From Escherichia coli (lineage in GTDB: Bacteria; Pseudomonadota; Gammaproteobacteria; Enterobacterales; Enterobacteriaceae), in assembly GCF_030013205.1 (NCBI RefSeq), contig NZ_CP122648.1: a DNA stretch of 64,000 bases, one strand, 5' to 3'. A program made the position numbers and the translations under genes. Positions 63,800-64,000 of the stretch are shown here, in pieces (position 1 is the stretch's first letter; each line of letters starts with the position of its first letter). The notes below the pieces were generated by a model that was not told the origin of the DNA, did no database searches, and saw only the letters and a list, made by a program, of their open reading frames with translations.

Positions 63800-64000
63800 G
63801 GAACAACATATTCTCTATATTTTTTCAGTTAATAACTATTCGTGATTTATGTATAGCATCTGGTACAATCCACAAATGAAGTTAAATTGATTAATTCTCC
63901 TCGGAGAAATTCATTACCCATATGGTGCAAGTTGAGAATCCACACATGAAACTTAATACAAGAGACGAAAAACAGATAATTATTGAAAGAATGGATTGGA

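What the first reader, a model, noticed from the sequence alone, without database searches (positions are those of the whole stretch)
63800..64000. AT-rich sequence abutting the truncated gpD gene at the window edge
The 200 bp beyond the gpD-like gene is AT-rich and non-coding in appearance and is not the P2 U gene. It may mark the deletion junction or the start of another acquired segment continuing outside the window.
Basis: seen in the sequence. Interest (0 to 1): 0.2.

Follow-up and report, generated by a model that had tools for sequence, protein, structure and literature searches.

The report
Prophage cargo gene and tail promoter
The AT-rich last 200 bases are the normal promoter region of a P2-like prophage's tail operon plus the first codons of a foreign membrane acyltransferase gene carried as cargo at a well-known phage hotspot; the suspected deletion lies about 70 bases further in, so the feature is ordinary.

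Summary
The tract is AT-rich: 30.8% GC against 50.4% for the window, in the lowest 1.5% of 201-bp windows. It is not the deletion junction. A sister genome (ETEC6333) keeps the tail sheath gene, and window 63732-64000 is 100% identical to its sheath start, intergenic region and cargo-gene start.

The window-specific 3,641-bp deletion joins at 63731|63732, inside the "gpD" ORF. That ORF is an in-frame chimera of 16 sheath (FI) codons and gpD.

Window 63779-63945 is the native 167-bp divergent intergenic region. It holds a P2 P_F / 186 pJ-type late promoter. The TGT-N12-ACA dyad is at 63850-63867, centred 80.5 nt from the sheath ATG (P2 82.5, 186 81.5). GAATAT is the -10. It also holds a conserved extended -10 on the + strand for the cargo gene.

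From 63946 a 351-aa AT3 acyltransferase gene (32% GC) runs out of the window. Its closest phage match is the SfII acyltransferase (42% identity). It occupies the slot between tail-fibre assembly and sheath genes, the position of P2's Z/fun hotspot.

The host element is an ~11.8-kb decayed P2/186-like prophage at the rybB 3' end. The cargo occurs in 17 of 5,426 complete E. coli genomes, all porcine.

This is known architecture with an uncharacterised family member. Interest is low.

The parts
62240..62318 (+). rybB small-RNA gene. Its 3' end carries the prophage attachment core.
   Evidence: Rfam RF00110, 104 bits, E=1.4e-21 at L001 20091-20169, which equals the window coordinates minus 42149.
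62310..62331 (.). att core repeat TTTTTTGTTGCCTAAAATTTAT at the ogr-side end of the prophage remnant. The partner copy lies outside the window at L001 31942-31963.
   Evidence: A 13-nt exact match, 21/22 overall, between the two ends.
62396..62614 (-). ogr/B-type late transcription activator gene (72 aa as annotated in RefSeq).
   Evidence: Pfam Ogr_Delta PF04606, E=6.7e-22; RefSeq annotation in K_EC180.
62705..63731 (-). gpD-derived part of the chimeric ORF. It lacks about the first 25 codons of gpD.
   Evidence: Pfam Phage_GPD matches from profile position 28 onward. It is 100% identical to ETEC6333 up to 63731. RefSeq marks it as a pseudogene missing the N-terminus.
63731..63732 (.). Junction of the window-specific 3,641-bp deletion (sheath codon 17 through tube, E, T' into gpD). 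There is no microhomology at the join.
   Evidence: Window 62000-63731 equals L003 3586-5317 and window 63732-64000 equals L003 8959-9227, both at 100%.
63732..63778 (-). First 16 codons of the tail sheath gene (MNDFHHGVRVVEVNEG), fused in frame to gpD.
   Evidence: Identical to the N-terminus of the ETEC6333 sheath protein. A 41-nt stretch matches sheath genes of many P2-like phages at 93-95%.
63786..63791 (-). Shine-Dalgarno-like GGTGGG, 7 nt upstream of the sheath ATG.
   Evidence: Read from the sequence.
63800..63813 (-). Predicted late-promoter -10 (GAATAT, 63813-63808) and transcription start (63800-63802).
   Evidence: The dyad-to-start offset is 65-67 nt in the annotated P2 P_F and 186 pJ promoters. 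Applying it here puts GAATAT at -12..-7, where P2 has GAAAAT. This is an inference, not a mapped start.
63850..63867 (.). TGTACCAGATGCTATACA, a TGT-N12-ACA dyad and predicted binding site for the Ogr/B late activator.
   Evidence: Centred 80.5 nt from the sheath ATG. The corresponding values are 82.5 (P2 annotated activator site), 81.5 (186 annotated B site) and 83.5-85.5 in five other P2-like phages. A dyad in that position occurs in 0.2% of shuffles.
63861..63869 (+). Extended -10 (TGgTACAAT), the predicted promoter of the cargo acyltransferase. It overlaps the right half of the dyad.
   Evidence: Conserved as TGnTAyAAT in all four diverged copies of the cassette (~72% overall identity). This is an inference.
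63779..63945 (.). Native 167-bp divergent intergenic region (33.5% GC) between the sheath gene and the cargo gene.
   Evidence: Identical in the undeleted sister prophage. It is homologous at 71-73% in three other loci.
63946..64000 (+). First 55 nt of a 351-aa AT3 (Acyl_transf_3) membrane acyltransferase gene. It continues to window-equivalent 65001.
   Evidence: RefSeq CDS WP_063502572.1. Pfam PF01757, 62.1 bits against a cut-off of 31. The start codon is shared by the three closest homologues.

Best explanation
The tract is the native regulatory region and 5' end of a cargo gene in a decayed P2/186-like prophage integrated at the 3' end of rybB. On the minus strand it carries the late tail-operon promoter, the equivalent of P2 P_F and 186 pJ. 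That promoter has an Ogr/B-binding TGT-N12-ACA dyad at 63850-63867, a GAATAT -10 and a predicted start near 63801. It once drove sheath-tube-E-T-U-D. It now drives only a chimeric pseudogene, because a 3,641-bp deletion fused sheath codon 16 to gpD at 63731|63732. On the plus strand a conserved extended -10 (63861-63869) most likely drives a divergently transcribed, AT-rich gene that starts at 63946. This gene encodes a 351-aa AT3-only membrane acyltransferase. It sits in the slot between the tail-fibre assembly gene and the sheath gene, which is the position of fun(Z) in P2, a classical cargo hotspot. The tract is AT-rich because the cargo cassette (about 1.2 kb, 32% GC), upstream region included, has a foreign composition. 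By analogy with Oac/OacD-type phage acetyltransferases, the protein most likely moves an acetyl group from cytoplasmic acetyl-CoA across the inner membrane onto a surface polysaccharide such as the O-antigen. That would be lysogenic conversion, changing serology and phage receptors. Shown here: the anatomy, the junction, the homology, the motifs and the position. Inferred: promoter activity, the transcription start, and the acceptor sugar.
For: Extension beyond the window: the window is 99.986% identical to K_EC180 over 21.85 kb. The annotation there reads ogr, D (pseudogene), acyltransferase (+ strand), then G, H, I, J, W, V, FRG, S, R'/'CII, CI, int and rcdA. Native, not a junction: the window's two halves map at 100% to ETEC6333 positions 3586-5317 and 8959-9227, flanking 3,641 bp of sheath-tube-E-T'. 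The intergenic 167 bp are identical. Promoter: the dyad is centred at -80.5 from the sheath ATG, against -82.5 for the P2 annotated activator site and -81.5 for the 186 annotated B site. Five further phages have it at -83.5 to -85.5. The -10 geometry matches the mapped starts, and the chance of a dyad so placed is 0.2%. Same layout in P2: fun(Z) is divergent from FI with P_F between them. The Z/fun locus is described as one of two classical P2 hotspots (bioRxiv 10.1101/2024.10.15.618418). Cargo protein: Pfam AT3 above the gathering score. K23-X10-H34, FFFISG and K77xxR80 correspond to the R/K-X10-H, FFXISG and RXXR motifs of PMC7448272. The best phage hit is the SfII acyltransferase, at 42% identity over 96% of the length. 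SfII carries oacD, a GlcNAc 6-O-acetylase of the O-antigen (PMC8973906). The cassette has a conserved upstream block, including the + strand TGnTAyAAT, in three diverged loci.
Against: No transcription data exist, so both promoters and the start site rest on sequence geometry and conservation only. The right half of the dyad overlaps the cargo -10, so conservation of ACA could reflect either element. In L010/L011 the dyad reads TAT-N12-ATA. The acceptor substrate is unknown: 42% identity to the SfII gene does not fix specificity. I did not verify by sequence that the SfII hit is oacD itself. The published description of the O139 repeat unit that I read mentions no O-acetyl group. PHROGs, NCBIfam and PADLOC have no model that matches the protein. 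The RXXR motif is present only as KxxR. All 17 carrier genomes are 100% identical over the cassette, so there is no within-lineage evidence of selection.
Confidence: 0.85

Rival explanations
1. The AT-rich tract is the scar or filler of the deletion that removed U and the other tail genes.
For: It lies right next to a truncated gpD, and U is missing.
Against: The same 269 bp (63732-64000) are found at 100% identity in ETEC6333 and nine other genomes next to an annotated sheath gene. The breakpoint is at 63731|63732. ~72%-identical copies of the tract exist in three unrelated loci.
Confidence: 0.02
2. The tract is the end of the prophage, and chromosomal or another island's DNA begins here.
For: There is an abrupt GC drop from about 60% to 31%.
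Against: Beyond the cargo gene come tail-fibre assembly, tail fibre, I, J, W, V, S, CII, CI and integrase genes of the same prophage, then the att repeat and rcdA. The prophage ends are at rybB (window ~62310) and L001 31963.
Confidence: 0.01
3. The tract and its gene are inert decaying DNA: the acyltransferase is a dead passenger and the promoters are no longer functional.
For: The prophage is heavily decayed, with two or three large deletions and frameshifts in I and CI. All carriers are clonal and identical. No family-specific model matches the protein.
Against: The ORF is intact at 351 aa. All residues invariant across 12 homologues down to 35% identity are kept, as are the AT3 motifs. The cassette, with its upstream block, survives in at least three other decayed contexts where the tail genes are gone. 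That pattern is expected for retained cargo.
Confidence: 0.1
4. The upstream mini-ORF (MKLN-stop, 63876-63890) and the 21-nt direct repeat (63867-63887 / 63937-63957) form a leader-peptide or attenuation device controlling the acyltransferase.
For: The two repeat copies are 81% identical, and both read ATG-AAR-YTN-AAT (Met-Lys-Leu-Asn). A small hairpin, TTCTC-CTCG-GAGAA, lies between them.
Against: Neither the first repeat copy nor the mini-ORF is conserved in the three ~72% relatives, although the surrounding block is. No Rfam family matches. Two-copy short repeats in AT-rich DNA are often chance matches.
Confidence: 0.03

Closest known systems
P2 Z/fun cargo hotspot (the fun(Z) gene between tail-fibre gene G and sheath gene FI)
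   Same: Same slot between the tail-fibre assembly and sheath genes. Same divergent orientation relative to the sheath gene, with the late promoter in the shared intergenic region. Same low GC: the visible part of fun(Z) is 31% and this gene is 32%.
   Different: The cargo is unrelated to Fun(Z): it is an AT3 acyltransferase rather than a T5-exclusion protein. The intergenic region is 167 bp rather than 390 bp. There is no DNA similarity to P2 in the tract.
P2 P_F and phage 186 pJ late promoters (activated by Ogr/B zinc-finger proteins)
   Same: A TGT-N12-(A/C)CA dyad at the same distance from the sheath ATG. A GA(A/C)(A/T)AT -10 at the same offset. No good -35: GTTATT matches the consensus at 2 of 6 positions. 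An intact ogr gene lies downstream in the same element.
   Different: The sequence between the elements is much more AT-rich and cannot be aligned to P2 or 186. Activity has not been tested. The operon it would drive is reduced to a sheath'-'gpD chimera.
Phage-borne AT3-only O-antigen acetyltransferases (OacD of SfII, Oac of Sf6)
   Same: Pfam AT3 domain only. About 350 aa and polytopic. The K/R-X10-H, FFXISG and (K/R)xxR motifs are present. It is carried by a temperate phage as a lysogenic conversion gene. It is 42% identical to the SfII acyltransferase over 96% of its length.
   Different: It is carried by a P2-like myovirus remnant, not the SfII or Sf6 type. The host is porcine E. coli. The acceptor sugar and acetylation position are unknown. 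No equivalog model matches. I did not verify by sequence that the SfII hit is oacD itself.
Cryptic P2 remnant of E. coli K-12 (ogrK-yegZ; from my own knowledge, not tested here)
   Same: A decayed P2-like prophage that retains ogr and a truncated gpD at one att end.
   Different: It is at a different chromosomal site. The K-12 remnant keeps no cargo gene or tail-fibre block of this kind, as far as I recall.

Membership tests
Acyltransferase-3 (AT3, Pfam PF01757) membrane acyltransferases | Match to the family profile above the curated threshold | tested here: met
   62.1 bits against a cut-off of 31, E=6.3e-17, residues 17-290.
Acyltransferase-3 (AT3, Pfam PF01757) membrane acyltransferases | R/K-X10-H motif in the first transmembrane helix (the His is invariant in characterised members, PMC7448272) | tested here: met
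   K23-X10-H34. K23 is invariant and H34 is kept in 11 of 12 aligned homologues.
Acyltransferase-3 (AT3, Pfam PF01757) membrane acyltransferases | FFXISG motif | tested here: met
   F54-F-F-I-S-G59. F54, F55 and G59 are invariant in the alignment.
Acyltransferase-3 (AT3, Pfam PF01757) membrane acyltransferases | RXXR motif (essential in Oac, OafA and OafB; highly but not absolutely conserved) | tested here: inconclusive
   Present as K77-F-K-R80. Two homologues have R-F-K-R at this place and two lack the final R.
Acyltransferase-3 (AT3, Pfam PF01757) membrane acyltransferases | Polytopic inner-membrane protein (about 10 helices in AT3-only members) | tested here: inconclusive
   A crude Kyte-Doolittle scan gives at least 6 strong hydrophobic segments at a strict threshold. 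No dedicated topology predictor was available.
Acyltransferase-3 (AT3, Pfam PF01757) membrane acyltransferases | Acyl transfer to an extracytoplasmic carbohydrate | not testable with these tools
   Needs NMR or mass spectrometry of LPS, ECA or capsule from a knockout or an expression strain.
P2-type late promoter (Ogr/Delta/B-dependent) | Dyad TGT-N12-ACA upstream of the promoter, centred about 55-58 nt from the transcription start | tested here: met
   A perfect dyad at 63850-63867. Its distance to the sheath ATG is 80.5 nt, against 82.5 in P2 and 81.5 in 186, whose starts are annotated 56.5-58.5 nt from the dyad centre.
P2-type late promoter (Ogr/Delta/B-dependent) | A -10-like hexamer at the corresponding offset and a poor -35 | tested here: met
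   GAATAT at -12..-7 of the predicted start (P2 has GAAAAT, 186 has GACAAT). The hexamer 17 nt upstream, GTTATT, matches TTGACA at 2 of 6 positions (and the sequence).
P2-type late promoter (Ogr/Delta/B-dependent) | Activation by the Ogr/B protein | not testable with these tools
   An intact ogr gene is present, but activity needs a reporter or a footprint.
P2/186-like (Peduoviridae) prophage | Characteristic gene order ogr-D ... FI-(cargo)-G-H-I-J-W-V ... S-R, with integrase and att duplication | tested here: met
   Annotation of K_EC180, ETEC6333 and ATCC 8739 at the same site. The element is only a remnant: capsid, terminase, lysis and replication genes are absent.
Cargo at the P2 Z/fun hotspot | A non-essential gene, variable between related phages, inserted between the tail-fibre assembly and sheath genes | tested here: met
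   The slot holds the acyltransferase here, a DNA invertase plus alternative fibre genes in ATCC 8739, Cartapus and KP12, nothing in 4LV2017 and 186, and fun(Z) in P2.
Anti-phage defence system (PADLOC models) | Match to a known or candidate defence protein model | tested here: not met
   No PADLOC family at E<=0.01 for the acyltransferase.

The most novel reading that the evidence does not exclude
The cargo cassette may be a self-contained unit in which the phage late-activator site is wired into the cargo's own promoter. The Ogr/B dyad overlaps the conserved extended -10 of the acyltransferase promoter. The whole upstream block, including a scar of the first 4-5 sheath codons, has been kept at ~72% identity in at least three other loci that have lost the tail genes. 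If so, Ogr binding on induction would switch the surface-modifying gene off or on as late genes fire, or the old phage promoter region has been domesticated as the regulatory region of a retained host-benefit gene.
Probability: 0.1. Interest if true: 0.35.

Novelty: new member of a known kind. Interest (0 to 1): 0.12.

Why it matters
This matters mainly as a correction to the annotation logic. The "truncated gpD" is really a sheath'-'gpD chimera. The AT-rich DNA is a retained cargo cassette, not debris. The biological point is modest. A rare, uncharacterised AT3 acyltransferase is fixed in a porcine ETEC/edema-disease lineage (17 of 5,426 complete genomes) on a prophage that has lost nearly everything else. 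That is the pattern expected for a lysogenic-conversion gene kept for host benefit. If it acetylates the O-antigen, it could affect serotyping, vaccine antigens and phage-therapy host range in pig pathogens. None of this is surprising to a specialist.

Tried and rejected
1. Leader peptide or attenuator. The 21-nt direct repeat and the MKLN mini-ORF are not conserved in the three ~72% relatives, so I rejected this as chance.
2. Known RNA element in the tract. Rfam at E<=1 over L001 20000-23600 gives only RybB, which lies outside the tract, and a sub-threshold snoRNA hit that is noise.
3. Microhomology at the deletion junction. There is none at the join. Imperfect similarity nearby (GAAGGCA ... 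ATYACCAC, encoding EG..ITTV in both genes) was seen by eye but not evaluated.
4. An intact phage carrying this cargo. There is no DNA match in 50,697 phage records apart from the 41-nt sheath start and 65 nt of the SfII gene. All 17 E. coli carriers hold already-defective copies.
5. Functional naming of the protein. PHROGs, NCBIfam and PADLOC give no hits.
6. Sigma-70 scan. The generic scan missed the extended -10 because it requires a -35. Its best + strand hit in the tract (63793-63821) is not conserved in the relatives.
7. A literature link between O139 and O-acetylation, or between rybB and P2-like integration. Nothing useful was found.
8. P2 gene remnants around the relatives. Only L012 shows one, a gpS-like stretch at E=4e-14. 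L010 and L011 show none beyond the sheath-start scar.

Full report
**Observation.** Window 63800-64000 is 30.8% GC, against 50.4% for the whole window. Only 1.5% of all 201-bp windows are this low. No complete ORF of note lies in it. It is indeed not gpU.

**Context in the window.** The core genes rimK, nfsA, ybjC, grxA, ybjM and ybjL end at 62160. They are followed on the minus strand by an Ogr/Delta zinc-finger gene (Pfam E=6.7e-22) and a "gpD" ORF (Pfam Phage_GPD, matching only from profile position 28). Rfam places the sRNA gene rybB at 62240-62318.

**Extension beyond the edge.**
- The last 1.85 kb of the window match seven porcine ETEC genomes at 100%.
- The last 21.85 kb are 99.986% identical to E. 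coli K_EC180.
- In K_EC180 an annotated "acyltransferase family protein" starts at window-equivalent 63946 on the plus strand. It is followed by tail-fibre assembly, tail fibre, I (frameshifted), J, W, V, an FRG-domain gene, S, a tail-protein fragment joined to a CII fragment, CI (frameshifted), integrase and then the core gene rcdA.
- A 22-nt att core (21/22 identical) is duplicated at the rybB 3' end (window 62310-62331) and after int.
- The element is therefore an ~11.8-kb remnant of a P2/186-like prophage.
- An intact relative sits at the same site in ATCC 8739, with D-U-T-E-FII-FI in order.

**Where the deletion is.**
- Most E. coli genomes stop matching at window 63731.
- A three-way alignment with ATCC 8739 shows that the window follows the sheath gene's 5' end and then switches in frame into gpD.
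- Seventeen of 5,426 complete genomes, all porcine, carry the cargo gene at 100% identity. Ten have an annotated sheath gene beside it and seven do not, like the window.
- Against ETEC6333, window 62000-63731 equals L003 3586-5317 and window 63732-64000 equals L003 8959-9227, both at 100%.
- The window lineage therefore lost 3,641 bp, with no microhomology at the join.
- The "gpD" ORF is a chimera that starts at the ATG at 63778: MNDFHHGVRVVEVNEG from the sheath gene, then ITTVLDNR... from gpD.
- ETEC6333 itself already carries a smaller T'-U-'D deletion.
- The 167-bp intergenic region 63779-63945 is identical in the undeleted copy. The AT-rich tract is therefore native sequence and not a junction.

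**What the intergenic region contains: the late promoter.**
- P2 has the same layout. The cargo gene fun(Z) is divergent from FI, and the intergenic region holds an annotated activator-binding site for P_F and a mapped transcription start.
- Phage 186 has an annotated B-protein site and pJ start upstream of its sheath gene.
- The window has a perfect TGT-N12-ACA dyad at 63850-63867, centred 80.5 nt from the sheath ATG.
- The corresponding sites are at 82.5 nt in P2, 81.5 nt in 186, and 83.5-85.5 nt in ATCC 8739, Cartapus, KP12, 4LV2017 and 500465-1.
- Using the P2 and 186 dyad-to-start offset (65-67 nt), the predicted start is 63800-63802. GAATAT sits at -12..-7, where P2 has GAAAAT.
- A dyad in this position arises in 0.2% of shuffles of the intergenic sequence.
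- The hexamer at the -35 position (GTTATT) is poor, as expected for an activator-dependent promoter.

**What the intergenic region contains: the cargo promoter.**
- The two closest protein relatives of the cargo gene (72-73% identity) lie in three contigs, none with tail genes around them.
- DNA homology at 71-73% nevertheless covers the whole upstream block, back to window-equivalent 63797 or 63766.
- That block includes a scar of the first 4-5 sheath codons.
- One of these contigs (L012) has a gpS-like remnant next to the scar (E=4e-14), so it too is a decayed P2-like prophage.
- All four copies conserve a plus-strand extended -10, TGnTAyAAT (window 63861-63869), which I take to be the cargo promoter. 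It overlaps the right half of the dyad.
- The dyad is kept in L012 but reads TAT-N12-ATA in L010 and L011.
- A 21-nt direct repeat whose copies both read Met-Lys-Leu-Asn is not conserved, and I dismiss it.

**The cargo gene.**
- It encodes 351 aa at 32% GC and matches Pfam AT3 above threshold.
- It keeps K23-X10-H34, FFFISG and K77xxR80. These correspond to the R/K-X10-H, FFXISG and RXXR motifs described for characterised AT3 acetyltransferases (PMC7448272).
- Its best match among 50,697 phage records is the SfII acyltransferase, at 42% identity over 96% of the length.
- The literature places oacD, which 6-O-acetylates GlcNAc of the S. flexneri O-antigen, on SfII (PMC8973906).
- PHROGs, NCBIfam and PADLOC have no matching model.
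- A hairpin after the stop codon (L001 22858-22882) is followed by a T-run on the minus strand. It probably terminates the V-G late operon.

**Comparison with what is known.**
- The slot between the tail-fibre genes and the sheath gene is the classical Z/fun hotspot of P2 (bioRxiv 10.1101/2024.10.15.618418).
- Among the relatives fetched here, that slot holds an invertase with alternative fibre genes, nothing, or fun(Z).
- Phage-borne AT3 acetyltransferases are textbook lysogenic-conversion genes.
- Everything about the tract fits known architecture. Only the particular acyltransferase is uncharacterised and rare.

**Verdict.**
- The "deletion junction" reading is wrong, and the "start of another acquired segment" reading is right.
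- Mechanistically, the tract is a divergent promoter region plus the first 18 codons of a probable surface-polysaccharide O-acetyltransferase.
- Promoter activity, the transcription start and the acceptor are inferred, not shown.
- Interest is low.

Noticed in passing
window 62240-62331: The sRNA gene rybB (Rfam 104 bits) ends in the prophage att core. The P2-like prophage uses the rybB 3' end as its attachment site, and the core is duplicated at L001 31942-31963.
   Followed up: partly
L001 27466-28439 (outside the window): A second cargo slot lies between V and S. It holds an FRG-domain protein that matches the PADLOC candidate defence family PDC-S15 (E=8.5e-32). A second TGT-N12-ACA dyad (27466-27483) sits in the intergenic region upstream of V and is probably the V-operon late promoter.
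   Followed up: partly
L001 28896-29466 (outside the window): A tail-protein fragment is joined directly to a CII fragment. This marks a second, much larger deletion that removed the lysis, capsid, terminase and replication genes. ETEC6333 shares it, so it predates the window's sheath-gpD deletion.
   Followed up: no
L003 5317-5340 (ETEC6333): The 'undeleted' sister prophage has its own smaller deletion joining a tape-measure fragment to gpD. The lineage therefore shows nested, successive decay of the tail operon.
   Followed up: partly
window 63867-63887 and 63937-63957: A 21-nt direct repeat (81% identical). Both copies read ATG-Lys-Leu-Asn, and the second contains the acyltransferase start codon. 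It is not conserved in related cassettes.
   Followed up: yes
L010 ~3990-4010, L011, and L012 ~2420-2440: Three diverged copies of the acyltransferase cassette in non-tail contexts keep a scar of the first 4-5 codons of a sheath gene and the whole upstream block. L012 also has a second AT3 gene in tandem and a gpS remnant.
   Followed up: partly
window 43751-45785: This is the largest low-GC island in the window (minimum 23% GC). In K_EC180 the corresponding stretch, between ybjQ and ybjP, is annotated as a truncated pentapeptide-repeat protein pseudogene.
   Followed up: no
protein P0018 (S. flexneri acyltransferase cluster, 346 member sequences): In the 12-sequence alignment this representative has Tyr where all the others have the TMH1 histidine (H34 here). 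That is odd if this residue is the invariant catalytic His of AT3 proteins.
   Followed up: no
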